A stretch of 32,000 bases of DNA, taken from Candidatus Saccharimonadota bacterium (GTDB lineage Bacteria; Patescibacteriota; Gracilibacteria; UBA1369; 2-02-FULL-48-14). Location of the stretch: positions 840,001 to 872,000 of the forward strand of contig OZ246396.1 of NCBI GenBank assembly GCA_965230905.1. Direction: 5' to 3'. The position numbers and the translations under genes are program-made. Each line of letters opens with the position of its first letter. The stretch's first letter is position 1. Of the stretch, positions 2,623 to 22,913 are shown piece by piece. The notes under the pieces were generated by a model. That model worked only from the letters and a program-made list of their open reading frames with translations, was not told where the DNA came from and searched no databases.

Positions 2623-2703
2623 GGGAGCGGGTTTAAATTAATCTGATTATACGGTCAGAAGCAACTCTACTTTTTTGGCTTCTCTCATATGCCGAATATT
2701 ACA

Positions 2704-2735
2704 TGGCTCCCTTGATTGGAGGCAATTAGAACTGC
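2704..2735 (-). repeat. Partial copy of the tRNA-Asn 3' end (att-like), most distal copy
   Basis: tggctcccttgattggaggcaattagaactgc compares with the tRNA 3' end tggctcccccggttggattcgaacc. It has the same orientation and carries the 5-nt insertion shared by the whole repeat family. Confidence 0.7.
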
Positions 2736-2758
2736 ACGGCGTACACAATGTTTTAGCC

Positions 2759-3100
2759 CTAATTCCCCGCAGTTCGATGTGAAAGTCGGATGGGTTTCGG
2801 TTCTTGCATTCTTGGGCTACGCATATTCAGCTCTAAACTTTGTCCTGCTGTTAATGTTTGAACAATGTCGTAGTGAGTGGATAGTATTTCTCTCGTAGCT
2901 CCCTCTACTATATCTATCCCTGCTCGAGATTTGAATACCGTTGAATCTCTATCATTTCGGTCGCATTCGAAAACATAGATTTCACGACTTCCATCCTCCT
3001 TTAGATTGGACATCGAACCCGGTTGAGCGCCTGGCTTCAGTACTGCAATTTCTTTCCAACTACCTTCGATAGAAGTTTCAATGTGTAATAGCATATTCAA
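2759..3100 (-). CDS. Hypothetical protein (113 aa)
   Basis: ORF only. No motif recognised. It is divergent from the 3199 gene. Confidence 0.45.
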   Translation of the reverse strand: MNMLLHIETSIEGSWKEIAVLKPGAQPGSMSNLKEDGSREIYVFECDRNDRDSTVFKSRAGIDIVEGATREILSTHYDIVQTLTAGQSLELNMRSPRMQEPKPIRLSHRTAGN

Positions 3101-3149
3101 TAGGTTAGTTCGTTACTATACTTTATATCAGCAATATGTCAACAATTCA

Positions 3150-3178
3150 TTGACGTCATGGTAATAATGTTGTATCAT
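3150..3178 (+). promoter_or_regulatory. Sigma-70-type promoter for the 3199 gene
   Basis: ttgacg (3150-3155), a 17-nt spacer, then tg-tatcat (extended -10, 3171-3178). It lies 20 nt upstream of the ATG. Confidence 0.45.
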
Positions 3179-3198
3179 CCTAGCTCTTAATCTGTTCT

Positions 3199-4161
3199 AT
3201 GCACACACCTGCTACCGCCTTACAGCTTCTACAAACACCTGAATACGAGCAAATTAAAGCGCCTTTTCAAAGGGCTGTTCAGGAGTGGATTGGGGCGCAG
3301 GAGGGCAACTGGCAACGGTTGGTCGTAAACCCTCGTAGTTGTGGACTGCAAGGTCAAATGGCTTTCAATGAACGAGCTTTAGAACCCTTTCTAGGGGGCC
3401 AGTTTCGTGCGTTCTGGGATTCCCTTTCAGAAGAGCAAAGACAGCTCTTTGGACGTGCTAATAATAGAATGGGATGGAGGCACTTCTTCCTTGAAACGGC
3501 TGCTACCATGTTTGATGCAACACTCATGAATGCCATTGAGCAAGGGCTCATTCCACATCCGGATGGAAAAGTCGTTGGAACAGAACGAGCGGGAATGCCG
3601 GGTTCGCTTGAAGATGATACTGCTCGAGCTAAGGGGTCCATGACTTATGACTTGGAACAGGTTCTTGCTGAACACCTAAAATACTATTCTTCAGGTAACG
3701 CAGGAGAAGATCAGCAATTCATGGATGCCTTGATAGATTATCTTGGTTTGGATATAGACCGTGCGAATGCGTTGATGTCTAGGGTTTTGGAGCATCACGG
3801 TCTTCCCAATCTTCATAAGGCTCGACGAACTTACGGTGCACTTTTGCAGACTGCTCTGCTTCAGTGTTATGGAAAGCGAGATGCTTATTGGCGAACGACG
3901 CCCGAAGAAATTGTTCCTGATCAGGTTCAAAGTCATAGCTGGCCAAAAGCTTATCGTCAGTTACCACTTTTAGATGCTGTATTGGAATCTTCTCTTTGGT
4001 TTTATGATCCGGTAAAGATAGAAGCTTGTCATGCTGACTTGGTCGCACGTCATCCGCAGGATGCAAATCCAGAGCATGAGGCTAACCTTGCCCAAGGGCA
4101 AAGAATCATTGATGCGCTTCAAGCTTTTCGAACACGAGTTCTTGGTGAAGGACAGGTTTAA
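3199..4161 (+). CDS. Hypothetical protein (320 aa)
   Basis: A long ORF with its own promoter. No family recognised. Confidence 0.65.
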   Translation: MHTPATALQLLQTPEYEQIKAPFQRAVQEWIGAQEGNWQRLVVNPRSCGLQGQMAFNERALEPFLGGQFRAFWDSLSEEQRQLFGRANNRMGWRHFFLETAATMFDATLMNAIEQGLIPHPDGKVVGTERAGMPGSLEDDTARAKGSMTYDLEQVLAEHLKYYSSGNAGEDQQFMDALIDYLGLDIDRANALMSRVLEHHGLPNLHKARRTYGALLQTALLQCYGKRDAYWRTTPEEIVPDQVQSHSWPKAYRQLPLLDAVLESSLWFYDPVKIEACHADLVARHPQDANPEHEANLAQGQRIIDALQAFRTRVLGEGQV

Positions 4162-4173
4162 GATCCTCAGTTC

Positions 4174-4211
4174 GCAATGCATGACGTTCCTCTATTAATC
4201 TCGTGTATAAT
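4174..4211 (+). promoter_or_regulatory. Copy of the conserved portable promoter block (gcaatgcATGACG..TATAAT)
   Basis: -35-like atgacg at 4181-4186 and tataat at 4206-4211, with a 19-nt spacer. The upstream gcaatgcatgacgtt matches the blocks at 6013, 7731 and 12532. Confidence 0.5.
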
Positions 4212-4217
4212 CCGAGC

Positions 4218-5000
4218 ATGATTTTTTATGTTCAGTTAATACTATCTTTTCTTGTTGGCGGCTTATTCATTGCTTTACAAACGTTAATTGCCGAGAGAGT
4301 TTCTCCACTATGGAGGGGGGTTATACTTACGATTCCTTCCACGATGGCCTTAGGCTTGTTTTTTATAGGTTTATCAAAAAGCTCTCAAGACGTAACTGAG
4401 GCGGCAACGATTGTTCCAATAACGCTGGGGATAGACTACCTTTTTGTGGCCGTTTTCTCTTTAATGGTAGGCTTTGGCCTTTGGACCAGTCTTTTTGTAT
4501 CACTCTTCGTTTGGGGGCTTACAGCAGTGTTGATTTTACAGTTTCCACCTAACAGTTTCCTTAGCTCAACGGCTTTAGGAATGCTGCTTATAGTGTTGTC
4601 CTATCTCATGGTGCGTATTCCCACAGGAGTTCAAACCCTGAAGAAATTTCCAATGAATGCCAGGCACATTATTGTTAGAGCACTCATCGGAGGAACCGTT
4701 GTTACCCTTGCATTATTCCTTTCAAAAACTCTGGGTAATGTATGGGGAGGGCTATTTTCAGCTTTCCCGGCTACCTTTTCATCGACCTTTATTATTTACT
4801 ATTACTTGCAAGGGAAGGAAGCCATTCCTACTGTAAGTAGAGCCCTCTTTTTCCCTGGAGCCATTGGATTTATTGTTTATGCATGGGTCGCCTCAGTCAC
4901 CTTTTCTAGTTTTGGTATTTGGCTTGGGACCTTAGTTTCGTACCTGGCGGTTTTCATTTTTGTTTGCTCATGGACATTTTTAGCGCGAAGCCGAAAATAA
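4218..5000 (+). CDS. Polytopic membrane protein with an internal duplication (DUF3147-like)
   Basis: The ORF-track start (GTG 4203) overlaps the TATAAT box, so I prefer the ATG at 4218. The protein has about 8 hydrophobic segments. The two halves resemble each other (FLVGGLFIALQTLIAERV.. versus ALIGGTVVTLALFLSKTL..). Confidence 0.7.
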   Translation: MIFYVQLILSFLVGGLFIALQTLIAERVSPLWRGVILTIPSTMALGLFFIGLSKSSQDVTEAATIVPITLGIDYLFVAVFSLMVGFGLWTSLFVSLFVWGLTAVLILQFPPNSFLSSTALGMLLIVLSYLMVRIPTGVQTLKKFPMNARHIIVRALIGGTVVTLALFLSKTLGNVWGGLFSAFPATFSSTFIIYYYLQGKEAIPTVSRALFFPGAIGFIVYAWVASVTFSSFGIWLGTLVSYLAVFIFVCSWTFLARSRK

Positions 5001-5051
5001 TGCAGGATTTGATGTGCGGCAGCTATGCTGTTGGAGGTAATTGGAAATTCG

Positions 5052-5079
5052 TTGATAAATTTTAAACTTTCATTATAAT
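5052..5079 (+). promoter_or_regulatory. Sigma-70-type promoter for the 5097 gene
   Basis: ttgata (5052-5057), a 16-nt spacer, then tataat (5074-5079). Confidence 0.5.
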
Positions 5080-5096
5080 CAGACCTTATCTTAAAT

Positions 5097-5978
5097 ATGG
5101 CTAAAGAAATCGCTGAAGGCAGAAACTTATTAGGCATAAGCAATACTTACATGCGGCAGCAGCCTTGGTTTGAACATGCGCGTGGCCCCATAGAAGGAAT
5201 TCTGGCGAGTGTTCGTAAGTTAACAGTGATTCCTTATGCTTTAGCAGACCGTGATTGGTATACCCAAAAATTGGGAGCAGAATTCGCCCGTTTTGGTGTA
5301 GAATCCGTGGTTTCTCCTCATCAATTTCCAGGTTCTGAAGAACAGGTTTTAGCTGATGCCGAAGCAGTTTACATCGGAGGAGGGGATACGCCACTTTTAG
5401 TCGCTAATCTTCATGGACTTCGGCATGAAGATGATCAAACGCTGGTGGATTCAGGCGCTGCGAGCTCACAGAATCCGTTAGTTGATGTGCTTCGAAATCG
5501 TGTAGCTGAAGGAATGCCTCTACTAGGGGCAAGTGCAGGTTGGAACGTTATGTTTGGTGACATTAGAACTACTAACGATATGCATACAGCTCCTTGGAGA
5601 CTTGCTAATGGAGCCAGTGTTTCTCGTATGGATGCACTTGGTTTGTTCCCCAGACATTTGAATGGGAATCCTCACTATTTAGAAAAAGTGACACTTACGG
5701 ATGAGGACAGGGCTGCGGCAGTAGCTGTTAACGGTGATTTGGCTCAACTCATTGACCATCAGGGTGAGTCGAGAAAAGAGCGTATTGCTAGAGCTTTGAG
5801 TCAGGATCCTTCTCGAGTGATTATTGCTCTTAGGGAAGGTGCTTATTTGAGCGTTCAAGGGTCTACTATGGTTTTGGGCGGAGAAACCGGTGGGTTGATT
5901 TTTGAGAAGGGGCTGGATGCCAAAGAAGTATCGATAGGAGAAGATTTGAGCTATTTGTTGAAAAATCGAAATAGTTAG
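5097..5978 (+). CDS. Peptidase E-like protein (S51 family / type-1 glutamine amidotransferase-like fold)
   Basis: VIPYALADRDWY, AVYIGGGDTPLL and LLGASAGWNVMFGDIRTTNDM..LGLFP..NPHY parallel the PepE blocks FIPYA, GGGNTF and GWSAGAN..TIRTTNDMP..NPHF. Confidence 0.75.
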   Translation: MAKEIAEGRNLLGISNTYMRQQPWFEHARGPIEGILASVRKLTVIPYALADRDWYTQKLGAEFARFGVESVVSPHQFPGSEEQVLADAEAVYIGGGDTPLLVANLHGLRHEDDQTLVDSGAASSQNPLVDVLRNRVAEGMPLLGASAGWNVMFGDIRTTNDMHTAPWRLANGASVSRMDALGLFPRHLNGNPHYLEKVTLTDEDRAAAVAVNGDLAQLIDHQGESRKERIARALSQDPSRVIIALREGAYLSVQGSTMVLGGETGGLIFEKGLDAKEVSIGEDLSYLLKNRNS

Positions 5979-5984
5979 ACGAAA

Positions 5985-6010
5985 AGTTAGAGCGCCCAAT
6001 TTGGCTGATC
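5985..6010 (+). repeat. Junction repeat of the inverted type (agttagagcgcccaatttggctgatc)
   Basis: It differs at 3 of 26 positions from 12437-12462. Both copies lie just 3' of a plus-strand cassette gene. The AGTT..CCAAnTTGG blocks resemble the reverse complement of the att-like repeat. Confidence 0.6.
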
Positions 6011-6012
6011 TC

Positions 6013-6045
6013 GTGCATGATGTTCATTTCGCCTTTTGCTATAAT
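6013..6045 (+). promoter_or_regulatory. Copy of the portable promoter block
   Basis: gtgcATGATGttcatttcgccttttgcTATAAT, with a 17-nt spacer. It is homologous to 12532-12569. Confidence 0.5.
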
Positions 6046-6063
6046 CAAAACAAACCAAGCTAT

Positions 6064-6212
6064 ATGCCCGTCAAAAATATTCTCCAAAAAAAAGAGCAAA
6101 GTATATGAGTGCTTTTGAAGAACAGATGATTTATCACACAACTAAAACTGAAAACCCTGAGACAACGCTTCGAATGGTGAGGCAGGTGCTTCGTAAATTC
6201 CCCTCTGTATGA
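6064..6212 (+). pseudogene. Decayed copy of the small Fic-antitoxin gene
   Basis: The ATG at 6064 reads MPVKNILQKKEQSI and then stops. A second frame from 6105 reads MSAFEEQMIYHTTKTENPETTLRMVRQVLRKFPSV, which aligns with the C-terminal half of the intact copy at 12590-12769. The downstream Fic gene is missing; only a 34-codon stub follows. Confidence 0.6.
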
Positions 6213-6229
6213 AGGGTAAGGGCTCCTCT

Positions 6230-6633
6230 TTATCTACCTACGGGGATTTCTTTCAACATTTCGAAAGGGTCGACACTATGATCATAAGTTGCTGCTTTGT
6301 ACGTATCAATTAGTGCGAGAATTTTTGTATTACGTTCCAAAGAAGACATTTTTTTGATTTTTTTGCACTATATTTGTTGAGGAACGCTTTAAATGCAAAA
6401 CGTTCAACTAAGCTACTCCAATAGGTGTCTTCATTGTATTTCTCAAGACCCGCTTCCGGACCATGGGAATAGATTAGACCCGCAACATCTTCATATTTAT
6501 GATCAATAATATTAGGTTCATTTTTTGAATTTACGATCGAATTGCCGAGATGTACTAGCTCAAGTAAAGATTTGAACTGTTTTTTGAAAGTTTGATGTCC
6601 ATAAATGTTTCTTAGGAGCTGGAGCTTCTCATG
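6230..6633 (-). pseudogene. Gene remnant with no start codon and probably a frameshift
   Basis: The minus frame is open across 6310-6633 (107 codons) but contains no ATG, GTG or TTG. A 39-codon ORF (6230-6349, MSSLERNTKILALIDTY..) continues in another frame across an A-rich tract. Confidence 0.3.
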
Positions 6634-6667
6634 CTATTCGAAGATTATTTCAAATGCAAGCTTTCTG

Positions 6668-6713
6668 AAAACCCGCCATTACTTTGCAATAAGTGCGGGG
6701 AGATTAGTGAAAT
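6668..6713 (+). repeat. 46-bp direct repeat, left copy, flanking the zeta-toxin module
   Basis: aaaacccgccattactttgcaataagtgcggggagattagtgaaat differs from 7770-7815 at 4 of 46 positions by my manual alignment. Confidence 0.8.
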
Positions 6714-6715
6714 GA

Positions 6716-6877
6716 CTAAGAAACAGGTGCTATCTCTTTATTTGCAACAGCTTGCTCGTATCTGGCTAAAAGAGCCTGTTGATCTTTACTTGCCTCTTTG
6801 AGGACCCCTTTAATGAACTTCTTCTTTTCGGAAGACTTCATGTTGAGGTAATCGGAGACGGTATTGATGTGGTTCAT
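6716..6877 (-). CDS. Small ORF (53 aa) directly downstream of the zeta-toxin gene
   Basis: MNHINTVSDYLNMKSSEKKKFIKGVLKEASKDQQALLARYEQAVANKEIAPVS. Its ATG lies 3 nt after the zeta stop codon. No family recognised. Confidence 0.3.
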   Translation of the reverse strand: MNHINTVSDYLNMKSSEKKKFIKGVLKEASKDQQALLARYEQAVANKEIAPVS

Positions 6878-6880
6878 ACT

Positions 6881-7604
6881 TTATTTGAGAATTTTCTGCA
6901 GCAGATTACTATTGTACCCTGTTTTCAGGTGGCGGTCAATTTCGGTGATGTTCAAAAAGAACTCTTCGAGACCTATATTATCCTTATTTTTGATAGCAAG
7001 GTTAACTTTTACGCTTGCGCCGAATTCCTTTTTGATTTTATTCACATTCTCCTTGGCGAGGAAAAATGCCTCAATGAAATCAGACATCAAAATGCGCCTG
7101 CCTTCGAGGGCTTCGCGCTTCTTTGTGAAGTCCCAAGCAATTTTTGGATCTTGGTAAATGTACCAAATTTCCACATGCCAGTCTCTTTTTATGACTCGTG
7201 AAGGTCCCGTCCAGTATGAAATTTTTGTTATTGCCTATGGCGTGGTCGACAAGTTTATCTACTCCCTTCGATGCAGCCCCTTGAACCAGGTGAGAATTTT
7301 TGCCGTTGTAGAGGTTCCGAGGAAGCATTTCTCTGACCTCATCCGCGTCAATTCGTAAAATCTTGCCGCTGAGTTTTGGCAAACCTTTGATGAAACTTTT
7401 TGAGAATTCCGTCTTCCCAGCTCCTGGTGAGCCAGCCATAAAGATGGCCAGAGGAGTTTCCTCTTTTGATACAGGTTGAATCTTTCCAGCAAATTTTTCA
7501 ATGATTTCTTTCTTATGTTCAACAACGTACTGACGAGCTGAATCTGAAACCCTCTCGTTTCTGCCTTTCATGAGAAAGTCGAAAATTCTTCTCAATAAGT
7601 TCAT
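6881..7604 (-). pseudogene. Zeta-toxin family P-loop kinase, frameshifted
   Basis: ORF 7080..7604 carries the Walker A motif FMAGSPGAGKTEF and ILDGTF. ORF 6881..7174 continues with VEIWYIYQDPKIAWDFTKKREALEGRRI, the zeta C-terminal region. The two frames meet at the T5 run at 7186-7190 (A5 on the coding strand). Confidence 0.75.
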
Positions 7605-7644
7605 GCGCAGATTTTAACAGTGCTGAGTCCTTTCGTCGATTGGG

Positions 7645-7694
7645 AGTTCGGATACTGTCAAAATGGCTCCCCCGTATTTGATGCTATCCGAACT
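7645..7694. repeat. Head-to-head pair of att-like copies forming a 10-bp perfect inverted repeat
   Basis: agttcggata (7645-7654) and tatccgaact (7685-7694) are exact reverse complements. The right arm belongs to the att-like copy tggctcccccgtatttgatgctatccgaact (7664-7694). Confidence 0.7.
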
Positions 7695-7769
7695 TTTGTG
7701 ATGGGCGAGGGGTGGGGCTTCGGTGGAAGTGCACAATGTGCATGACGTTCATTTTTCTTGCTCCATCAA

Positions 7770-7815
7770 AAAACCCTCCATTACTTTGCAATAAGGGTGA
7801 GGAGATTAGTGAAAT
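7770..7815 (+). repeat. 46-bp direct repeat, right copy
   Basis: See 6668-6713. It is preceded at 7731-7769 by a decayed copy of the promoter block, in which the -35 atgacg survives at 7742-7747 and the -10 is lost. Confidence 0.8.
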
Positions 7816-7882
7816 TTAAAGAAAGTTTCCTGCTCTCTTACGCGTTCATCATCAGATTCGTGAGAAATTACATCGAAGTGTC

Positions 7883-7911
7883 TTGCAGGTTGGCCAATTT
7901 TACTGTATAAT
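7883..7911 (+). promoter_or_regulatory. Sigma-70-type promoter for the 7941 gene
   Basis: ttgcag (7883-7888), a 17-nt spacer ending in tg, then tataat (7906-7911). The tgtataatatata string recurs at 11896-11908. Confidence 0.5.
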
Positions 7912-7940
7912 ATATAGATTTATTCTGTTACCAGAGTCCC

Positions 7941-10106
7941 ATGCCTTCACACTTTAAGCTCTTTAAAAAAGTTCGTGTCGCACGACTTTCAGTGCTCGCA
8001 GTACTTTTGTTGACCTTTGTGGGCTTGCCCGCAGCGGGGCAAATGGCGGGTACCAATCTTTTTAAAGAGCTGGATCTCCTCACGTGGGCTTCTAGAGTAA
8101 TCCTAGCAGAAGAGGGTACTACCGAGTCGGACATGAGTGGATGGTCTGAAGAAGATTGGACAACTTACTGCGAAACGAACGACTGTGAAACTTGGACTGA
8201 AGAAGACACAAGTGAGTGGACTGAAGAAGAATGGACTGAGGGTGACACCAGTGAATGGACTGAAGAAGAATGGGAGGAAACCAGCGAGTGTACGGACTCA
8301 AGCTGTGAATATTACAATGAGGAATGGGACGATTATTGTAAAGAGAACGATTGTGAACAGTGGAACGACGGAGAGTGGGACCAAGAAGACCAAGAAAACT
8401 TTTACGAAGAAGGAGCTTGGGAGGATAAGCCCTATGAAGACTACTACTATGGTGAAGAGGGATACTATTATGGAGAAGACGGTTATTATGACGAGACGGG
8501 CACTTTTTATCCGTACGAAGAGGGAGTCTATGAAGACTACTACTATGAAGCCGCCGATGAAGAGTACTTCATGCGTCAGCAAGAAAGCATGAAAGGGGAA
8601 GTAGACCGTCTTCACGAAGAACTTTATGGCATCAAAGAAATTTTCAGCAAACTAGAGGGAATTTCTACGCCAAGCTCCCGTGTTGCAGCTTCTTTGACAG
8701 AACTCAACAACTTGTTAGAAAAGGGGCTTACGGCCCTTGAACAAATGGAGGCGGCCCTTGAAGACGGCCTCAGTGATGAAGACACCATGAGCACCTTCTG
8801 GGACACCATGGACTCACTAGGTGATGCTGCTGAAACACACATGGAAGTGCTTAAAGATTGGCTTGAAGAAGACTCAGCCGTAGCCTCGGCTTTAACTGAC
8901 GAAGAAATGGCGTTCATTACCATGGATCATGAGGATGAGGAGTATTCCGAAGACGAAATCAGCGATTATTTATCTGAACAGTATTCGGATCTAGTAGACG
9001 ACGTTGACTTCGAAAGCTTTGCTGGGAATGTCTCTCCAGAGGAAATGGAGAAAATCTTCCGCTACATCAACGATGCGATGATGCAAGAACTGCTTAAATA
9101 CATGGACGACGAACAAGCAAACGATATCTTGACCAAGATGATGAACAGCCTCACCACTTTTGGAGACAAAGGGACTGCTCTCATGCAAAATACGACAGAG
9201 GTTTTGGATGTCATGGAGGGCTTGGATTTCGATGGAGTATCGTCTTCGGAAGAAGTAGATCAACTGGAAGCACTCTACGAAGAGACAAAAGGCAGTTTGA
9301 TAACGGAAGCTAGCAAAGATGATTTGAAGGAAGTTTGGGCTGACGTGGAAGATGCTTTAGCACTGGGCAATGTGAGCAAAGAAACCATGAAGGCTTACGT
9401 AGCAGAACTGGATCAACTTCTTGACGAAAACAAAGAGAGTCTAGTCTTGGAGGACGAGGTGGAATTCTATGATGCTACTCTAGACGAAAATGCGTGGTAC
9501 TTCGATGAACTGGCAGAAGCTCGTGATCAAGACATTATTTCTGGTGATAAAGATTCCAATGGAAATCCAACGGGTTATTTCCGCCCCGGGGACGAAGTTA
9601 CCAAAGCTGAAGCGCTCAAAATGATTTTAGAGGGAGCCGGACTCAACGGAAGTTCAGGCAATAGCTCCGACTCCAGCGCGGACGGTAAATGGTACGAAGA
9701 ATATGTTAAACATGCAGAAGAACTTGGTCTGCCTTACCAAGGAGATTGGGATGAAAGCTGTGATCGTGGAACCGTTGCTGCGTGGACTGCAGAGATATTC
9801 GTGGGCGACGTGGCCGGCCTCGATATCGCTGAGTTCGAATACGAAGGCACTTTCGATGACGTGAGCGATTCAGATCCCAATGTGGAATATTATCAAGCAG
9901 TTTACGAGTACGGGATCTTTACGGGAGACGATGCCACCGGAGATCTTCGTCCAGATGACCTTATCAACCGTGCTGAAACCACCAAGGTTATTATGACCGC
10001 AGTGGAAGAAGTGGTTGAAACGGCAGAGATTGAGGAAAAACTGGATGACGTGGGAACTTTGCTGCAGAGGGCTGCCGTTCTTAGCAAGTTCTTTTCTCTG
10101 CTGTAA
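7941..10106 (+). CDS. Secreted, extremely acidic repeat protein with two C-terminal SLH-like domains
   Basis: The N-terminus has a signal-like segment (LSVLAVLLLTFVGLPAAG). It is followed by TSEWTEEEW repeats, two C..NDCE.W modules and a Y/E/G-rich tract. The C-terminal blocks YFRPGDEVTKAEALKMIL and FDDVSDSDPNVEYYQAVYEYGIFTGDDATGDLRPDDLINRAETTKVIM match the SLH pattern (F.DV...GI..G..F.P...ITRAE). Confidence 0.8.
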   Translation: MPSHFKLFKKVRVARLSVLAVLLLTFVGLPAAGQMAGTNLFKELDLLTWASRVILAEEGTTESDMSGWSEEDWTTYCETNDCETWTEEDTSEWTEEEWTEGDTSEWTEEEWEETSECTDSSCEYYNEEWDDYCKENDCEQWNDGEWDQEDQENFYEEGAWEDKPYEDYYYGEEGYYYGEDGYYDETGTFYPYEEGVYEDYYYEAADEEYFMRQQESMKGEVDRLHEELYGIKEIFSKLEGISTPSSRVAASLTELNNLLEKGLTALEQMEAALEDGLSDEDTMSTFWDTMDSLGDAAETHMEVLKDWLEEDSAVASALTDEEMAFITMDHEDEEYSEDEISDYLSEQYSDLVDDVDFESFAGNVSPEEMEKIFRYINDAMMQELLKYMDDEQANDILTKMMNSLTTFGDKGTALMQNTTEVLDVMEGLDFDGVSSSEEVDQLEALYEETKGSLITEASKDDLKEVWADVEDALALGNVSKETMKAYVAELDQLLDENKESLVLEDEVEFYDATLDENAWYFDELAEARDQDIISGDKDSNGNPTGYFRPGDEVTKAEALKMILEGAGLNGSSGNSSDSSADGKWYEEYVKHAEELGLPYQGDWDESCDRGTVAAWTAEIFVGDVAGLDIAEFEYEGTFDDVSDSDPNVEYYQAVYEYGIFTGDDATGDLRPDDLINRAETTKVIMTAVEEVVETAEIEEKLDDVGTLLQRAAVLSKFFSLL

Positions 10107-10130
10107 TTATTTCGATGCATTCATAGAAGC

Positions 10131-10177
10131 GGTCCCTCTACTCACCATAACCTGGGAGTTGGAGGGGCCGTTTTGGG
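10131..10177 (+). terminator. Possible intrinsic terminator
   Basis: ggtccctc (10131-10138) pairs with gaggggcc (10162-10169), including one G-U pair, and is followed by gtttt. The 23-nt loop is long for a terminator. Confidence 0.3.
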
Positions 10178-10221
10178 TGAGAACAATTTTACTCCAAACC
10201 ACGGAAATTCGATCATCCAAA

Positions 10222-10251
10222 TGGCTCCCCACTCTGGAGGAAGTTAGAACT
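10222..10251 (-). repeat. Partial copy of the tRNA-Asn 3' end (att-like), degenerate
   Basis: tggctccccactctggaggaagttagaact. Confidence 0.55.
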
Positions 10252-10924
10252 ATATTGGCCAAACTCTACCTGGGTAATATAGGCGTACCCCTTTAATTCT
10301 ACATAGATGCGCAATCGGGATGTTGTAATGGCTCTGCCAATCTTTAGTGACACCGCATGCCGCTCTTAATTCTTCTGAATATGGCATTACAAGTACAACT
10401 GGATCCACTCTTTGATCCTGATAAATAGGGTCAAAAGCACCCCTTATTGCGTACATGGCTGCAGTATGAAAACCATCTAAAGTTGAGTTTACTGATCCAT
10501 CGGATTCATTTGGGTGATTATTGGTTACTATCACCGAATTTCCTTCAATTTGTACGAAACGTAGGCGTCTAAGTAGCGTACCTCTAAAAAGATGTCTTTG
10601 ACCTCCAAGCTCACTTTCTTCGAAAGTTGGTAGCTGAAGGGCCAAAGCTTCGGAAGTTTCTGTGAGTTTTCTCTCTAAGGAGTCTTTTTGCCTGCTAAGT
10701 TGGACAAAGCTCCGGCGCCATGGACTTTCTTCCATGAGTCTATTCACTTCATCTGTCCATGAATTGTCGTTGGTTATTCTTAGTGCATCAACAATTCTCA
10801 TCTTACTGGCAAGAACACCTGAAGATTGATCTCCCCTCTGTGCTTGCTCGAGTTGTACACGGTCGTATTCGCCAGCAAGCTTTGAGTGTTCTTCACAAAT
10901 TGAAGAAAGGTCAGATGATGACAT
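10250..10924 (-). CDS. Hypothetical protein (224 aa), a single-gene cassette
   Basis: A clean ORF lying between two att-like copies. A minus-strand gctataat box sits about 20 nt upstream of the ATG. No family recognised. Confidence 0.6.
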   Translation of the reverse strand: MSSSDLSSICEEHSKLAGEYDRVQLEQAQRGDQSSGVLASKMRIVDALRITNDNSWTDEVNRLMEESPWRRSFVQLSRQKDSLERKLTETSEALALQLPTFEESELGGQRHLFRGTLLRRLRFVQIEGNSVIVTNNHPNESDGSVNSTLDGFHTAAMYAIRGAFDPIYQDQRVDPVVLVMPYSEELRAACGVTKDWQSHYNIPIAHLCRIKGVRLYYPGRVWPI

Positions 10925-10973
10925 AGATTCAATAAAGAGCGTGATTATAGCTCATAAAGCTTTTACGTCCAAA

Positions 10974-11004
10974 TGGCTCCTCAAGTTGGAAGCAATTAGG
11001 ACTG
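10974..11004 (-). repeat. Partial copy of the tRNA-Asn 3' end (att-like)
   Basis: tggctcctcaagttggaagcaattaggactg. It ends 3 nt before the hicA stop codon. Confidence 0.7.
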
Positions 11005-11007
11005 AAT

Positions 11008-11238
11008 TTACTTTACTTGTTTCATAAACTCATCCACAGTTATATCCATATCTCGTATAAACTGCTTTAGCAGACCTTTCCCTATAGTTTTTTTTGGGTG
11101 ATTTGGGACAGAAAGAATATTGTTACCATTTGCACTTTCAAATATAACATGACTGCCTTTTTGCCTCACCGGCAAATAGCCAAACTTTTTTAGAATCTTC
11201 TCGAGCTCTTTGAATTTTAAGATAGGTAGATAACTCAC
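11008..11238 (-). CDS. hicA: HicA family toxin (mRNA interferase)
   Basis: 76 aa. KELEKILKKFGYLPVRQKGSHVIF..VPNHPKKTIGKGLLKQFIRDM matches the HicA pattern, including the GSH motif. Confidence 0.85.
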   Translation of the reverse strand: MSYLPILKFKELEKILKKFGYLPVRQKGSHVIFESANGNNILSVPNHPKKTIGKGLLKQFIRDMDITVDEFMKQVK

Positions 11239-11468
11239 GCGGCAAGTGATATTTCCTCAGTGGCGATGAACTTTGGATAGTATTTAAGTTCTTTGAATTC
11301 CATTTTGTTTTTCTCTCCTAGATGCTCAATACAAAGCTCCATTGCTTCTGTAATATTCTCCAAAGCTTCCTCGTAGGTGTCACCTTGGGAGTGGCACCCC
11401 TTGATGGCCGGACAGGAGGAAATGTATTTCCCGTCTTCGTCGCGCTGTATAAGTACTTGGAATTTCAT
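11235..11468 (-). CDS. hicB: HicB family antitoxin, short form (UPF0150 fold only)
   Basis: 77 aa. MKFQVLIQRDEDGKYISSCPAIKGCHSQGDTYEEALENITEAMELCIE matches the HicB N-terminal domain. No C-terminal DNA-binding extension is present. It overlaps hicA through a 4-nt ATGA. Confidence 0.8.
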   Translation of the reverse strand: MKFQVLIQRDEDGKYISSCPAIKGCHSQGDTYEEALENITEAMELCIEHLGEKNKMEFKELKYYPKFIATEEISLAA

Positions 11469-11743
11469 GTGCTAGTGAGGTTTATAAAGTCATTATAGCA
11501 TTCAGCATTGTCGGCTGCTAGGTCCATAGATTTAAATATTTCGCCTTTTTTATTTTTATAGATGCCTTTTCGGTAAGAAAATTGGTTCTTGACTGTATCT
11601 TTTTCAATCCATCTTCTCTCTTTTTTCGTCGTATATTCTTCCTTCCCGACGTAGGCGTGACCAAGGAAGGTTTTTTCCCCATTGTCATCCTCGAAAAAGA
11701 TCTCAGCTAATCTTCCGTTAATAAGTGCAAAACACCAACCCAT
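11465..11743 (-). CDS. Conserved small protein (92 aa), first gene of the hicB-hicA operon
   Basis: MGWCFALINGRLAEIFF.. It overlaps hicB through a 4-nt ATGA. A paralog lies at 13340-13576, and the first 17 codons of the two copies differ only at synonymous positions. Confidence 0.7.
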   Translation of the reverse strand: MGWCFALINGRLAEIFFEDDNGEKTFLGHAYVGKEEYTTKKERRWIEKDTVKNQFSYRKGIYKNKKGEIFKSMDLAADNAECYNDFINLTST

Positions 11744-11797
11744 AAAATTAATTATTCTAAAACTAGAACGGTTAATACTTATGAAAGTTACATAAAA

Positions 11798-11829
11798 TGG
11801 CTCCCCAAGTTGGATGCAATTAGAACTGC
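11798..11829 (-). repeat. Partial copy of the tRNA-Asn 3' end (att-like)
   Basis: tggctccccaagttggatgcaattagaactgc. Confidence 0.7.
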
Positions 11830-11931
11830 GGTGTTGGTGTGAACGACTTGATAAACTAGGTCCATGGGAGCCAATTGTTTAATCCACATTTTTATTGTAT
11901 AATATATATACTCTTAGTTGGACTTCTTTCT

Positions 11932-12414
11932 ATGTCGCTAAATGAAAAACTAACTCAGACCTCTGATCCACTTCGTTCAGTCTCGGATGAGGATTTGATA
12001 ATTATACTAAATAGAGCCATAGAAGGAGGTTTTTCTCCTTTAGATTTTATGAACTGTAACTACTATGATCTGAAACAACTTCAGAGGCTAGCTAGAGGAG
12101 AAAAGGAGAAAGCCTTGGCAGGTGGAGCTAGTCGTCTTGATTCTTTGCTGCAAACTTTAGGGGAAAAGATCCCTGAGCGTATGCGAATAGATACTCAGCG
12201 AATAAAATCAGGAGAATGGAAACTTCCCACAGGTGACATTCGCTCGGAAGCCTATGAGCTAGAGATGGCAGAGTTGACTGATGCGGTCGATAGAGTTGGG
12301 AAAAATTTAGATCGAATAACCGATATTGGACCTGAAGTAGCATCTTTACAAAAAAGTGTAGAAAGAATGGCAGCTGCTTTCCGTCCAGACGAAGAGCAGG
12401 GGATAGTTCATTGA
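11932..12414 (+). CDS. Hypothetical protein (about 160 aa)
   Basis: The ORF 11875..12414 was trimmed to the ATG at 11932, because tg-tataat at 11896-11903 lies inside the longer ORF. No family recognised. Confidence 0.55.
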   Translation: MSLNEKLTQTSDPLRSVSDEDLIIILNRAIEGGFSPLDFMNCNYYDLKQLQRLARGEKEKALAGGASRLDSLLQTLGEKIPERMRIDTQRIKSGEWKLPTGDIRSEAYELEMAELTDAVDRVGKNLDRITDIGPEVASLQKSVERMAAAFRPDEEQGIVH

Positions 12415-12436
12415 TTTCTATTTTGACTTCATAAAA

Positions 12437-12462
12437 AGTTCGAGCGTCCAATTTGGCTGGTC
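12437..12462 (+). repeat. Junction repeat of the inverted type (agttcgagcgtccaatttggctggtc)
   Basis: It matches 5985-6010 and lies 22 nt after the stop codon of the 11932 gene. Confidence 0.6.
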
Positions 12463-12487
12463 ACGGTTTTAATCTGTAAAATTAAAT

Positions 12488-12519
12488 TGGCTCTCTAAGT
12501 TGGAAGCAATTAGAACTGC
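12488..12519 (-). repeat. Partial copy of the tRNA-Asn 3' end (att-like)
   Basis: tggctctctaagttggaagcaattagaactgc. Confidence 0.7.
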
Positions 12520-12531
12520 ACTGCTTCGTTT

Positions 12532-12569
12532 GCAATGTGCATGACGGTCGTTTTTAAGTTTGCTATAAT
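12532..12569 (+). promoter_or_regulatory. Portable promoter block driving the antitoxin-Fic operon
   Basis: gcaatgtgcATGACGgtcgtttttaagtttgcTATAAT. The -35-like box is at 12541-12546 and the -10 at 12564-12569, with a 17-nt spacer. Confidence 0.55.
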
Positions 12570-12589
12570 CCAAATACTTCAATCAAAGT

Positions 12590-12769
12590 ATGCCGATCCA
12601 AAAAATGTTAAAAGCGTTCAGGTCCTATCAAAAAACTCGTGGTAGTAAACGGGCTGCTTATATGAAGTCTTTTGAGGCAAAAATGATTTATCGAACCACT
12701 AAAACTGAGAACCCAGAAACGACTCCTCTCTTGGTCAAGCAGGTGCTTCGTAAATACAAGTCTGTATGA
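12590..12769 (+). CDS. Small Fic antitoxin (59 aa) carrying the inhibitory motif
   Basis: MPIQKMLKAFRSYQKTRGSKRAAYMKSFEAKMIYRTTKTENPETTPLLVKQVLRKYKSV. T36-T-K-T-E40-N41 fits the [S/T]xxxE[G/N] inhibitory helix of class I Fic antitoxins. Its stop codon overlaps the Fic ATG (gtATGA). It falls just below the ORF-track cutoff. Confidence 0.65.
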   Translation: MPIQKMLKAFRSYQKTRGSKRAAYMKSFEAKMIYRTTKTENPETTPLLVKQVLRKYKSV

Positions 12770-13383
12770 AACGCACAGGAGAAACGGCTTATAAGGAAAC
12801 TGCATTTGGTATTCTTCCACGATCAAAACTGATCCCTCTAGAGATTGAGGGGATTAAGAGGGCCTGGGACTTTGTGTTGGAACAGGAACTTAAGGGCAAA
12901 ATTTTAATCACACCCTCTTCTCTCCAAAAGATTCATGCAGTCGGTTTTGGATGGATTTTCCCTGAAATGGGTGGAAAGTTTAGAACGACTGAAGTGACAG
13001 TTTCCAAACATAAACCGCCGCGCTTCTTTCAAGTTCCTCAATTGATGGAAGATTTTACCGAGGATTTGAAGGTTAGGCTGAAGGGTTTGCCTGAATTTGA
13101 AGGAGAGGGCTTTTTGAAAGAACTTGTAGAGCTTTTAGCATGGACGCACCATCGATTCTTATGGATTCATCCTTTTTTCGATTACAATGGTCGAATAGCT
13201 AGACTGCTCATCAGTATGATTTTGATGAACTTGAATTTACCTCCGATAGAACTTCGAGTGGAAACTAGGATGAGTAGGATTAAATATGTGAAAGCTCTCA
13301 GCGAAGCGGATGAAGGAGATTTTACTTCGCTTGAAAAACTTATTCGTGCAGCTCTTGAGGAGGCTGCTGGGGATTTGGGTTGA
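12766..13383 (+). CDS. Fic/DOC family protein with a variant active-site motif
   Basis: 205 aa containing HPFFDYNGRIAR. The canonical motif is HxFx(D/E)GNGRxxR, so a Tyr replaces the first Gly. Confidence 0.85.
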   Translation: MKRTGETAYKETAFGILPRSKLIPLEIEGIKRAWDFVLEQELKGKILITPSSLQKIHAVGFGWIFPEMGGKFRTTEVTVSKHKPPRFFQVPQLMEDFTEDLKVRLKGLPEFEGEGFLKELVELLAWTHHRFLWIHPFFDYNGRIARLLISMILMNLNLPPIELRVETRMSRIKYVKALSEADEGDFTSLEKLIRAALEEAAGDLG

Positions 13384-13576
13384 TCTCTGTATACTTCCCA
13401 CCTTTGTATTTGAATTGGTAGCTACTGATATCCTTTTTAATCCAAGTTTTTTCCTGTTTGGTTTTATATTCTTCTTCCTCAACAAAACAATGTCCTTCCA
13501 GTAAAGTTTTTTTACCTTTTTTATCAAAAAAGATCTCTGCAAGTCGTCCATTGATGAGTGCGAAACACCAACCCAT
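13340..13576 (-). CDS. Paralog of the MGWCF small protein (78 aa from the ATG at 13576)
   Basis: MGWCFALINGRLAEIFFDKKGKKTLLEGHCFVEEEEYKTKQEKTWIKKD.. The 30 nt upstream of the ATG are identical to 11744-11773. The 3' end runs convergently into the Fic 3' end, so the C-terminus may not be native. Confidence 0.5.
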   Translation of the reverse strand: MGWCFALINGRLAEIFFDKKGKKTLLEGHCFVEEEEYKTKQEKTWIKKDISSYQFKYKGGKYTEINPNPQQPPQELHE

Positions 13577-13629
13577 AAAATTAATTATTCTAAAACTAGA
13601 ACGGTTGATGTTTATGGAAGTTACAAATC

Positions 13630-13659
13630 TGGCTCCCCAGGTTGGAAGCAATTCGAACT
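13630..13659 (-). repeat. Partial copy of the tRNA-Asn 3' end (att-like), the copy closest to the tRNA sequence
   Basis: tggctccccaggttggaagcaattcgaact. It equals the tRNA 3' end apart from one mismatch and the 5-nt insertion. Confidence 0.75.
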
Positions 13660-13837
13660 AATCTACTAAATCTCTGTAAAAATTCTCACGCGTTCCAATC
13701 GCTACAACGATAATATTGTTCCTTACTTCGTAGGCAACTCTATATTGGGTATGTACAAAACTAAAATGATGGGATCGTAGATTCTTAACCAGGGTGTATG
13801 CGTTAATAAAGTGGCGCGCCTTGCCGGAGGGTTTGAC
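13658..13837 (-). pseudogene. RelE/ParE-family toxin remnant, N-terminally truncated with no start codon
   Basis: The minus frame reads VKPSGKARHFINAYTLVKNLRSHHFSFVHTQYRVAYEVRNNIIVVAIGTRENFYRDLVD and then stops. The YRVAYEV..IIVVAIG.RE..Y tail is the RelE/ParE C-terminal pattern. An in-frame stop lies at 13838-13840 and there is no partner antitoxin. Confidence 0.55.
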
Positions 13838-13873
13838 TTAAGCTATTTTTAACTCTATAAAATTTGCTTTTAC

Positions 13874-14773
13874 ATGCACGAAGGATATCTAAATAGAGCT
13901 GGTAAGCTGTATGAAGCGGCTGTTGGAGCATGTGGCCCAAGAACAGTGGAGGGTCAAAAACGATATACCGATGGTTTTGAGGCCTACTTAAAAGGATATG
14001 CGGTAGCATTAGCAGAAAGCTCACAAGACGATGGAGGTAATGATCTCGAGAAAATAGATGGACAATTTAAGAGTATATTTGATTGCGCTAAAACAGAAGC
14101 AAAATTCAGTAACCAAGAGTGGGACCGTATAGCATGGGAACCCACAACGAGAATATCAATAGATAGGTGGATAAGGACGGTTATGTCTTTTAATGATGAT
14201 CATAATAATGAGATTGATCAAGAATTTTTTCCGGTAGATTTAATTTTACACTTTCTCAACGATATTAAAGAACGATCCCAACAATCTGGTGGGAGGCTGG
14301 ATCTGGTTGATCAATATAATATTGCCCTAAATTTAACGGGTAATGATTTAATCAGCGCTGCCTTGTTAGCACATGCGGCTTACAGGTCAGTCGGGCGAGT
14401 ATTGGACACAAGAGTGAGCGGTAAATTACGTTTTCCGGTGGAAGCTTCAGACGGAAGGATTTCTATGATAGATATTGCTAAAAGTACGGCGCACTTCAAC
14501 ATGGGCGATGCAATATGTGCCGACCCCCTGGGGGATACTTACCATTTTTGGGCACAGTTTAGTACAGGACTCGTTCTGGAATTATATGGAGATAGACCTA
14601 TTCGAGCTACTCAAGCAAAGGTGGTTAAAGCGATTTTTAGAATCGGGCCAGATTTAATGCGCTTTGGTCGTGAAACTATTAGGGGTCATAAAATGATTGC
14701 CGGCAATCATAAGCAAGTTGACTTATATGGATTACAGTTAGGTTCTGAGATGGGTAGATCAATCTCTCAGTGA
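13874..14773 (+). CDS. Hypothetical protein (299 aa), the cassette nearest the tRNA
   Basis: A clean ORF ending 26 nt from the tRNA 3' end. No family recognised. Confidence 0.6.
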   Translation: MHEGYLNRAGKLYEAAVGACGPRTVEGQKRYTDGFEAYLKGYAVALAESSQDDGGNDLEKIDGQFKSIFDCAKTEAKFSNQEWDRIAWEPTTRISIDRWIRTVMSFNDDHNNEIDQEFFPVDLILHFLNDIKERSQQSGGRLDLVDQYNIALNLTGNDLISAALLAHAAYRSVGRVLDTRVSGKLRFPVEASDGRISMIDIAKSTAHFNMGDAICADPLGDTYHFWAQFSTGLVLELYGDRPIRATQAKVVKAIFRIGPDLMRFGRETIRGHKMIAGNHKQVDLYGLQLGSEMGRSISQ

Positions 14774-14799
14774 ATATTCTAAACTCGCAAAATACTAAA

Positions 14800-14874
14800 T
14801 GGCTCCCCCGGTTGGATTCGAACCAACGACCCAGCGATTAACAGTCGCTTGCTCTACCACTGAGCTACAGGGGA
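14800..14874 (-). tRNA. tRNA-Asn (anticodon GTT)
   Basis: The manual fold of TCCCCTG-TA-GCTC-AGTGGTA-GAGC-A-AGCGA-CTGTTAA-TCGCT-GGGTC-GTTGG-TTCGAAT-CCAAC-CGGGGGA-G-CCA gives a 75-nt cloverleaf with an encoded CCA. Confidence 0.93.
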
Positions 14875-20889: not shown

Positions 20890-20947
20890 ATCTTATGGGT
20901 TAAGGTCTACCCACATAGATGACAGAACGATCCGACAAGTCTAGAGG

Positions 20948-21862: not shown

Positions 21863-21864
21863 AA

Positions 21865-22827: not shown

Positions 22828-22913
22828 TTTGTGGCCTTTTTACAGCGTGCTCATAGCTTACTACCTTTATGCCATAATGACACTTGTTTTCAGATTCACT
22901 TCACTTTTACAGC

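What the first reader, a model, noticed from the sequence alone, without database searches (positions are those of the whole stretch)
5985..12519. Cassette junctions carry oppositely oriented repeat partners that form imperfect palindromes (attC-like or TIR-like geometry)
Seen in the sequence: a second junction motif, agtt(a/c)gagcg(c/t)ccaatttggctg(a/g)tc, occurs at 5985-6010 and 12437-12462 with 3 differences in 26 nt. Each copy lies just after the stop codon of a plus-strand cassette gene.

Its AGTT..CCAAnTTGG blocks resemble the reverse complement of the att-like repeat (AGTTCTAATTGCTTCCAACTTGG). This resemblance is weak and is my inference.

At 7645-7694 the inverted relationship is explicit. 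agttcggata and tatccgaact are perfect reverse complements flanking tggctccccc. At 12437-12519 the two orientations face each other across about 25 nt.

The junction at 5985-6045 equals the junction at 12437-12569 minus the 69-bp segment 12463-12531, which contains the att-like core. This looks like a filled site and an empty site of the same junction.

The block 2704-6010 (four genes) and the block 11798-12462 (one gene) are each bracketed by one direct-type and one inverted-type copy.

Inference: the junctions could fold as hairpins in single-stranded DNA, as integron attC sites do. Alternatively they could act as terminal inverted repeats of non-autonomous elements.
Basis: partly seen in the sequence, partly recalled or inferred. 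Interest (0 to 1): 0.65.

Follow-up and report, generated by a model that had tools for sequence, protein, structure and literature searches.

The report
Serine-recombinase att sites at tRNA-Asn
The repeated junction motifs are attachment sites of a large-serine-recombinase system that has stacked about eight small recombinase-less gene modules next to a tRNA-Asn gene in a tiny-genome (CPR) bacterium, so the palindromes are double-stranded recombinase binding sites, not integron-style hairpins or transposon ends.

Summary
The motifs sit where stated and none are expected by chance.

The main repeat (seven copies, 2699-13661, all one orientation) ends at a tRNA-Asn gene (14800-14874, minus strand). 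It shares with that gene only the 7-nt core TGGCTCC, which is the tRNA 3' end.

The rest of the repeat is a P'-type half-site of a large serine recombinase (LSR). The same motif occurs in many phyla. In relatives it forms the last codons (WLPxLDxFRT) of LSR genes. After integration, the antisense of the tRNA replaces those codons (WLRRLDSNQRP).

The distal 9-mer lies 5 bp further from the core than its counterpart in the tRNA. This is the rule that distinguishes LSR attP from attB.

The palindrome at 7645-7694 is an intact 50-bp attP of a zeta-toxin module. That module is circularly permuted in a related contig.

The "second motif" is a left-arm half-site plus a core-like TGGCT. Its extra spacer is unexplained.

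I found no integron integrase, no attC consensus and no conserved hairpin. No LSR of this family lies in the window, so the modules are either trans-mobilised cassettes or relics.

The parts
2699..2735 (+). Main repeat copy 1, the outermost junction. Core TGGCTCC is at 2704-2710, followed by a P'-type arm. The left flank is chromosomal and syntenic with L055.
2736..5984 (.). Module 1 cargo: ORF 2759-3100(-), ORF 3199-4161(+), DUF3147 protein 4203-5000(+), S51 peptidase 5097-5978(+).
5985..6010 (+). Second motif copy 1: a left-arm half-site (AGTTAGAGCGCCCAATT) plus core-like TGGCT. No P' arm follows it.
6105..6212 (+). Orphan small ORF, paralogous to the putative antitoxin 12590-12769. It is 87% identical in DNA to the L023 copy. 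Its toxin partner is missing.
   Evidence: (D2)
6668..6713 (+). 46-nt repeat X, left copy. With 7770-7815 it brackets the circularly permuted zeta-toxin module.
   Evidence: (D6)
6881..7604 (-). Zeta-toxin gene split into two ORFs (7080-7604 and 6881-7174). It is the cargo of the module whose attP follows.
7645..7694 (+). Intact 50-bp attP-like site. P arm is AGTTCGGATACTGTCAAAATGGCT, central CC is at 7669-7670, and P' arm is CCCGTATTTGATGCTATCCGAACT. Dyad matches are 16 of 24.
7770..7815 (+). 46-nt repeat X, right copy.
   Evidence: D6
10217..10253 (+). Main repeat copy 2. Its left arm AATTCGATCATCCAAA is of the second-motif type and abuts the core directly.
10969..11005 (+). Main repeat copy 3.
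11793..11829 (+). Main repeat copy 4. It closes the HicA/HicB module (11008-11468).
12437..12462 (+). Second motif copy 2: left-arm half-site plus core-like TGGCT. A conserved spacer (TTTTAATCTGTAAAA) lies between it and the next core.
12483..12519 (+). Main repeat copy 5. It is followed by a promoter-like site at 12541-12569 and the putative antitoxin plus Fic/Doc pair (12590-13383).
12466..12536 (+). 71-nt segment absent from the paralogous junction at 5985-6045. It contains the whole att site of copy 5.
13625..13661 (+). Main repeat copy 6.
14800..14874 (-). tRNA-Asn (GTT), the anchor (attB) of the array. On the + strand its 3' end reads TGGCTCCCCCGGTTGGATTCGAACC.

Best explanation
The region 2699-14874 is a composite island anchored at the 3' end of tRNA-Asn. 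It was built by serial site-specific integration by a large serine recombinase (LSR).

Each main repeat has two parts. The first is the crossover core TGGCTCC, which is the reverse complement of the tRNA 3' end GGAGCCA and probably holds a central CC dinucleotide. The second is a 24-nt P'-type half-site.

Within the half-site, an inner TGGA block sits at the same distance from the core as in the tRNA. A distal 9-mer (ATTAGAACT here, TTTCGAACT in most phyla) sits 5 bp further out than its counterpart ATTCGAACC in the tRNA T-arm. This is how LSRs tell attP from attB.

The inverted partners are the left (P) arms of these sites. Site 7645-7694 is a complete 50-bp attP. The second motif is a P-type arm joined to a core-like TGGCT.

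Shown:
- the site anatomy;
- the anchoring at tRNA-Asn;
- homology of the motif to the 3' ends of LSR genes;
- module shuffling exactly at the core.

Inferred:
- that an LSR encoded elsewhere in this genome made the array;
- that the recombinase-less modules were inserted as circles in trans, rather than being deletion relics of full elements;
- that the tRNA-side junction can be re-used as attB. The staphylococcal cassette chromosome SCCmec suggests this by analogy.
For: 1. The array ends at tRNA-Asn, in the matching orientation.

2. The same pattern hits more than 118 loci in Acidobacteriota, CPR phyla, Deltaproteobacteria, Actinomycetota and others. In 15 of these loci a tRNA-Asn lies within the 8-kb block, always in the same orientation as the motif; in 14 it lies only on the side of the motif's P' arm, and L105 has one copy on each side.

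3. Motif and local tRNA share TGGCTCC (7/7 in 12 of 13 pairs). The next 6 nt do not copy the tRNA.

4. The motif reads in frame as WLPx[LV][DE]x[FILV]RT, with synonymous CGA/AGA swaps.

5. LSR ORFs (Resolvase + Recombinase + Zn ribbon) run through the motif in L048, L091 and L086, and into an intact tRNA-Asn in L079.

6. Of the 120 closest homologues of the L079 LSR, at least 59 end in a W-L-x-x-x-D-S-N... tail encoded by the antisense of a tRNA. A few end in WLPxVDxLR[NT].

7. L126 carries a Rep gene, such an LSR and an unsplit site, with no tRNA.

8. The distal 9-mer matches the tRNA at 82/117 positions with a 5-bp shift, against 21/117 unshifted. This follows the rule in PMC3783163.

9. The zeta module is circularly permuted between the window and L111. 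Homology breaks exactly at TGG.

10. Similar arrays without an LSR occur in L111 (6 sites), L120 (3) and L090 (5).
Against: - No LSR of this family, nor any pseudogene of one, lies in the island.
- The only LSR in the window (19597-20889) belongs to a prophage-like region. It is only 24-30% identical to this family and lacks the W-L tail.
- No LSR carrying the Peribacteria-type tail (WLPKLEAIRT) was found.
- Canonical LSRs do not recombine hybrid junctions, so repeated insertion at the same tRNA needs a tolerance that I have not shown.
- The left arms of most copies show no clear dyad symmetry. Across phyla there is no fixed-offset inverted partner.
- The extra core-like TGGCT and the 29-nt spacer at 12437-12487 are unexplained.
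- All copies of the source contig carry the same island, so there is no evidence of current activity.
Confidence: 0.75

Rival explanations
1. Integron-like cassette array. The junctions are attC sites that fold as single-strand hairpins and are recombined by an integron-type tyrosine recombinase.
For: The cassettes are short and recombinase-less, and toxin-antitoxin cargo is typical of chromosomal integrons. The junctions are imperfect palindromes of 50-90 nt. One junction folds well.
Against: No tyrosine recombinase was found in any window ORF tested. No RYYYAAC...GTTRRRY pair lies at any junction; the window holds 4 such pairs against 6.8 +/- 3.9 in shuffles, and none is at a junction. The box order is reversed (GTTC...GAAC). 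Two of the three nominated junctions and the other repeat copies fold no better than shuffles. Cargo genes point both ways and have their own promoter-like sites. The site is homologous to the coding ends of LSR genes.
Confidence: 0.03
2. Terminal inverted repeats of non-autonomous transposons (MITE-like). Each block bracketed by one direct and one inverted copy would be such an element.
For: Blocks 2704-6010 and 11798-12462 are bracketed by inverted partners. The 71-nt segment looks like an insertion.
Against: I saw no target-site duplications. All seven main repeats share one orientation and end at a tRNA gene. Only two of eight modules have the inverted partner. The 71-nt indel is not bounded by repeat ends. 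No transposase is associated.
Confidence: 0.04
3. A classical tRNA-gene island made by tyrosine integrases. The repeats would be displaced tRNA-Asn 3' fragments left by successive integrations.
For: A tRNA lies at one end, with direct repeats resembling its 3' end in the right orientation. Tandem arrays of this kind are known.
Against: Identity with the local tRNA stops after 7 nt. The rest of the repeat is conserved across phyla regardless of the local tRNA sequence. The associated integrase genes are serine recombinases. No tyrosine integrase was seen near the sites examined.
Confidence: 0.06
4. RNA-level elements. The second motif and the repeat would act as terminators or insulators after cassette genes.
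For: The second motif follows stop codons. A related version in L058 and L111 forms a 7-bp hairpin followed by a T-run.
Against: No terminator-like site lies at any junction. The fold z-scores are not significant. There is no Rfam match. No compensatory changes appear among the five composite sites.
Confidence: 0.05

Closest known systems
attP/attB sites of large serine integrases (Listeria phage A118-family integrase, phiC31, Bxb1)
   Same: About 50-bp attP and about 40-bp attB. Imperfect dyad around a central dinucleotide. An inner block at the same position in both sites. A distal 9-bp motif shifted 5 bp towards the centre in attB (PMC3783163). The integrase gene lies next to attP in relatives.
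   Different: The target is the CCA end of a tRNA gene. [quoted passage not shown] The recombinase ORF crosses the crossover point, so its last ~13 codons change on integration. In this window the modules carry no recombinase.
SCCmec composite islands made by CcrAB/CcrC at the 3' end of rlmH (from my own knowledge, not tested here)
   Same: Large serine recombinases. Integration at the 3' end of a conserved gene. Tandem modules separated by direct repeats, with imperfect inverted repeats at module ends. Recombinase-less pseudo-elements.
   Different: The target here is a tRNA, not rlmH. The host is a CPR bacterium. The modules are much smaller (0.7-3.3 kb). The recombinase is not identified in this genome.
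Tycheposons and other tRNA-anchored tandem islands
   Same: Successive integrations at a tRNA push older elements outward. This leaves tRNA-like repeats and degraded elements, and a minority use large serine recombinases.
   Different: Most of those use tyrosine integrases and leave true tRNA fragments of tens of nt. Here only 7 nt are shared. The repeat is a P' arm conserved across phyla.
Integron cassette arrays (attC)
   Same: Small recombinase-less cassettes separated by imperfect palindromes. Toxin-antitoxin cargo.
   Different: No integron integrase, no attC consensus and no conserved hairpin. Gene orientation is mixed and genes have their own promoters.

Membership tests
Large-serine-recombinase att sites | Site of about 50 bp with imperfect dyad symmetry around a central dinucleotide | tested here: met
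   At 7645-7694, 16 of 24 arm positions are symmetric about CC, with p = 6e-4 against shuffles. The other copies show only the right arm clearly.
Large-serine-recombinase att sites | Distal (zinc-ribbon-domain) motif shifted 5 bp towards the centre in attB relative to attP, with the inner motif unshifted | tested here: met
   82/117 matches with the 5-bp shift against 21/117 without it. TGGA sits at the same position in both. The rule is from PMC3783163.
Large-serine-recombinase att sites | Cognate recombinase gene (Resolvase + Recombinase + Zn ribbon) adjacent to the site | tested here: inconclusive
   Met in relatives L048, L079, L086, L091 and L126. Not met in the window island. The window's only LSR (19597-20889) is a distant relative inside a prophage-like region.
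Large-serine-recombinase att sites | Recombination activity at the central dinucleotide | not testable with these tools
   There is only comparative evidence. Homology between the window and L111 breaks at TGG.
Integron (attC cassette array) | Integron-type tyrosine recombinase next to the array | tested here: not met
   No Phage_integrase-type hit in any window ORF scanned.
Integron (attC cassette array) | R'' RYYYAAC and R' GTTRRRY boxes in that order | tested here: not met
   No such pair at any junction. The observed order is GTTC...GAAC.
Integron (attC cassette array) | Conserved single-strand hairpin at every junction | tested here: not met
   Only one of ten folded junction strands or regions stands out clearly. 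The IntegronFinder attC model itself was not available.
tRNA-gene genomic island (Islander type) | Intact tRNA gene at one end, and a displaced tRNA fragment in the same orientation at the other end | tested here: inconclusive
   The tRNA and the orientation are met. The 'fragment' shares only 7 nt with the tRNA.
tRNA-gene genomic island (Islander type) | Tyrosine integrase inside the island | tested here: not met
MITE / TIR non-autonomous transposon | Terminal inverted repeats with flanking target-site duplication, at dispersed sites | tested here: not met
   I saw no duplications. All sites lie in one array in one orientation.

The most novel reading that the evidence does not exclude
A cross-phylum family of small integrative replicons (Rep + LSR + cargo) uses the CCA end of tRNA genes as attB. 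It is built so that the recombinase's own C-terminal ~13 residues are swapped on integration: WLPxLDxFRT from the element, WLxxxDSNxRP from the antisense tRNA. This could give the enzyme a built-in read-out of its integration state. In CPR bacteria the same sites would have given rise to integron-like arrays of recombinase-less cassettes, inserted in trans next to tRNA-Asn.
Probability: 0.25. Interest if true: 0.8.

Novelty: new variant of a known kind. Interest (0 to 1): 0.6.

Why it matters
tRNA genes are the classic targets of tyrosine integrases. In the literature I read, serine recombinases were said not to be known to target them, or appear as a small minority. Here a widespread LSR family appears to use the tRNA CCA end.

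The attP/attB pair can be read directly from sequence and obeys the structural 5-bp rule. That makes the specificity of these enzymes predictable. It also gives a ready set of natural integrase and att pairs for organisms that lack genetic tools, including CPR bacteria.

The window also shows how a 1.3-Mb genome can hold a flexible pool of toxin-antitoxin and other small modules without an integron.

Tried and rejected
1. I first read the repeat as a displaced copy of the tRNA-Asn 3' end. I rejected this because bases after TGGCTCC do not follow the local tRNA.

2. I tried a model with the crossover in the T-loop (TTCGAA) and one with it in the variable NNNN. I rejected both. The LSR tails diverge right after W-L. 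The NNNN differs among copies of one array, while TGGCTC is invariant in every copy.

3. Rfam gave only tRNA hits.

4. An attC consensus scan found nothing at junctions.

5. A terminator scan found nothing at junctions.

6. I looked across phyla for a fixed-offset inverted partner. There were 18 scattered hits in 120 sites and no preferred offset.

7. I looked for an LSR pseudogene in the island with tblastn and found none.

8. A possible LSR 3' remnant lies upstream of 10222 (WELEGPF...WLP). A protein search found no homologue, so I left it as a weak hint.

9. A metagenome scan for the Peribacteria-type site gave only 3 loci and no LSR.

10. A viral-contig scan gave 1 hit.

11. I looked for strain variants of the island through a flanking protein. 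All copies were identical.

12. PADLOC on the unknown cargo proteins gave nothing except the methyltransferase outside the island.


Full report
**1. Checking the observation**

The second motif is at 5985-6010 and 12437-12462, with no matches expected in shuffles. It starts 6 nt and 22 nt after the stops of ORFs 5097-5978 and 11875-12414.

The main repeat (consensus AAATGGCTCCCCAAGTTGGAAGCAATTAGAACTGC) has six clear direct copies, at 2699, 10217, 10969, 11793, 12483 and 13625. A diverged seventh copy lies at about 7660. All are on the + strand.

The two paralogous junctions (5982-6213 and 12434-12770) differ by a single 71-nt indel at 12466-12536.

The inverted resemblance of the second motif to the main repeat is weak. 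It is p = 0.007 for 12437 and p = 0.2 for 5985. It recurs in diverged copies in other genomes.

**2. What anchors the array**

ARAGORN and Rfam find a tRNA-Asn(GTT) at 14800-14874 on the minus strand. On the + strand its 3' end reads AAATGGCTCCCCCGGTTGGATTCGAACC. The repeats resemble this, point the same way, and all lie downstream of the tRNA.

The window therefore holds about eight modules between 2699 and the tRNA. Their cargo is:
- an S51 peptidase with a DUF3147 protein and two unknown ORFs;
- an orphan small ORF;
- a frameshifted zeta toxin;
- a 721-aa SLH-domain protein;
- HicA/HicB;
- a putative antitoxin with a Fic/Doc protein;
- several further unknown ORFs.

No tyrosine recombinase was found in any ORF of the window that I scanned.

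**3. The motif is not a copy of the tRNA**

I scanned one genome per species with a degenerate pattern. About one hit was expected by chance.

The consensus is TGGCTCCCC-NNNN-TGGACGCATTTCGAACT.

A tRNA-Asn lies within the 8-kb block in 15 loci. It is always in the same orientation as the motif. In 14 loci it lies only on the side of the motif's P' arm; L105 has one copy on each side.

Motif and local tRNA share only TGGCTCC (7/7 in 12 of 13 pairs). The following 6 nt match at 0-5 positions. So the shared core is the tRNA 3' end GGAGCCA. The rest of the motif belongs to the mobile partner.

**4. The partner is a large serine recombinase (LSR)**

In frame, the motif reads W-L-P-x-[LV]-[DE]-x-[FILV]-R-T. 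The variation looks like that of coding sequence, for example CGA/AGA both encoding Arg.

Most copies are not inside long ORFs. In L048, L091 and L086, however, an ORF with Resolvase, Recombinase and zinc-ribbon domains runs through the motif. In L079 the same kind of ORF runs into an intact tRNA-Asn.

Among the 120 closest homologues of the L079 enzyme, at least 59 end in ...N-W-L-x-x-x-D-S-N-Q-R-P. That tail is the antisense translation of a tRNA T-arm. Others end in tails from other tRNA species. A few end in WLPxVDxLR[NT].

One of the latter, P0069, sits on a 5.9-kb contig with a rolling-circle Rep gene and an unsplit site, and no tRNA. This is consistent with the free form of the element.

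The tails diverge immediately after W-L. This places the crossover in TGGCTC(C).

**5. The site geometry follows the LSR rule**

The palindrome at 7645-7694 is centred between 7669 and 7670, which is the CC of TGGCT[CC].

Counting from that centre, the P' arm has TGGA at positions 8-11 and the distal 9-mer at positions 16-24. In the tRNA, TGGA is again at 8-11 but the 9-mer ATTCGAACC is at 11-19.

Across 13 motif/tRNA pairs the 9-mers match at 82/117 positions with the 5-bp shift and at 21/117 without it.

Rutherford et al. showed that the zinc-ribbon-domain motif occupies 16-24 in attP half-sites and is shifted 5 bp towards the centre in attB (PMC3783163). Part of the agreement here follows from the universal T-loop and from my search pattern. 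The 5-nt insertion itself is a property of the window's own repeats.

**6. Evidence that modules move at the core**

The zeta-toxin module is circularly permuted between the window and L111, an 8-kb contig that I take to be from a close relative. L111 2569-2735 matches window 7661-7824. L111 2680-3716 matches window 6668-7671.

In L111 the module is opened at the core and joined to unrelated arms on both sides. In the window its two ends are joined, giving the intact attP at 7645-7694. This explains why 7645-7694 is the only junction with strong dyad symmetry, and the only one that folds better than shuffles (z = -3.3 and -3.45).

In the window, a 46-nt direct repeat (6668-6713 and 7770-7815) brackets the permuted copy. 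I cannot say how it got there.

Arrays of sites without a recombinase also occur in L111 (six sites in 8 kb), L120 (three) and L090 (five).

L055 shares the window's left chromosomal flank up to the first repeat.

**7. The second motif**

Relative to its own TGGCT, the block CGTCC lies at -14 to -10. This mirrors GGAAG/GGACG at +10 to +14 of the P' arm. AGTTCGA lies further out. So the second motif is a left-arm half-site with a core-like TGGCT.

The distal block is 2-3 nt off both the P-type and the B-type spacing.

The same arm (AATTCGATCATCCAAA) abuts a real core directly at 10222.

At 12437-12519, and at four junctions in L111 and L120, the arm is separated from the next core by a conserved 28-29-nt spacer (TTTTAATCTGTAAAA...). 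The last 21 nt of that spacer resemble the 3' end of CPR LSR genes (14 of 21 for L079, 12 of 21 for L126, by eye). This may simply reflect a shared P arm.

I cannot explain the two-core arrangement.

The 5985 junction lacks the spacer, the core and the P' arm. The 71-nt difference is not bounded by cores, so I read it as an ordinary deletion that fused two modules. The region 6213-6668 also looks decayed.

**8. Rivals**

- The attC reading fails on integrase, consensus boxes, box order and conserved folding.
- The TIR reading fails on orientation, anchoring and the absence of duplications.
- A classical tyrosine-integrase island fails because only 7 nt are shared with the tRNA, and the associated genes are serine recombinases.
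- A terminator role finds no support.

**9. Open points**

No LSR of this family, or remnant of one, is in the island. The window's LSR (19597-20889) sits in a prophage-like region with a terminase and methyltransferases. It is 24-30% identical to this family and lacks the W-L tail.

I found no Peribacteria LSR with the matching tail.

Whether the modules are inserted in trans, or are deletion relics of Rep + LSR elements, is undecided.

Repeated insertion at the same tRNA requires that the hybrid tRNA-side junction be accepted as attB. That is known for SCCmec (my knowledge), but not for canonical LSRs.

**10. Novelty**

tRNA-anchored tandem islands and LSR site geometry are both known. [quoted passage not shown] The tycheposon study reports LSRs in 27 of 937 elements.

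I found no description of three things:
- a cross-phylum LSR family that uses the tRNA CCA end;
- a recombinase ORF that crosses the crossover point;
- arrays of recombinase-less cassettes built on these sites in CPR bacteria.

My literature search was limited.

Noticed in passing
window 19597-32000: A prophage-like region. It holds a large serine recombinase (19597-20889, -), an Apea-like HEPN protein, a terminase large subunit (23723-25237), two N6/N4 DNA methylases (one fused to ParB-N) and an HTH repressor. The recombinase's 3' end overlaps ORF 18720-19637 by 40 nt. tRNA-Gln lies 1 kb away. Its att site was not determined.
   Followed up: partly
P0001-P0120 (homologues of the L079 recombinase); L079 5065-6576: In this LSR family the last ~13 codons are supplied either by the element (WLPxVDxLRT) or by the antisense of the target tRNA. 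Tails such as WQGHVESNHD, WYPRQDSNLRP and WCPGVDSNHRP suggest tRNAs other than Asn, and the W codon always corresponds to the CCA end.
   Followed up: partly
L126 1-5936: A 5.9-kb contig with a rolling-circle Rep (REP_ORF2-G2P), an LSR, and SRAP and trypsin-like cargo. It has an unsplit att site and no tRNA, so it is probably the free form of such an element. I found no terminal overlap to prove that it is circular.
   Followed up: partly
window 6668-6713 and 7770-7815: A 46-nt direct repeat (91% identical) that encodes ...NPPLLCNK(C)GEISE... in small ORFs. It brackets the permuted zeta module. The two copies differ in a way that keeps a short stem (CCCGC/GCGGG against CCTC/GAGG).
   Followed up: no
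window 6881-7604 (-): The zeta-toxin gene is split into two overlapping ORFs (Pfam positions 7-108 and 125-189). This is probably a frameshift pseudogene.
   Followed up: no
window 11465-11792 and 13340-13625: Two paralogous small minus-strand genes with 102 nt of 87%-identical upstream sequence. They form the left arms of two different repeat copies, so the same module end occurs twice in the array.
   Followed up: no
window 8118-8270: An acidic 39-nt tandem repeat (TSEWTEEE-like) lies near the N-terminus of the 721-aa SLH-domain protein (7941-10106).
   Followed up: no
window 11866-11877: GGGAGCCAATTG, an inverted copy of the core, lies 37 nt downstream of repeat copy 4. The match is weak (nhmmer E = 2.6) and may be chance.
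   Followed up: no
L123 (source contig): The window comes from a 1,307,106-bp contig (ENA ERZ1292638 NODE_1, Hainich groundwater samples). Its tRNA-Asn is identical to that of a Peribacteria genome (L058), so the host is probably a Peribacteria/Peregrinibacteria-type CPR bacterium.
   Followed up: partly
L058 2105-2173; L111 (oriented) 6345-6414: A variant left arm, AAGTTCGCATCCAGTCTGGGTGGATGC...TAATCTGTAAAA, forms a 7-bp hairpin followed by a T-run. It carries an inverted P'-like block with B-type spacing, directly left of tRNA-Asn in L058.
   Followed up: no
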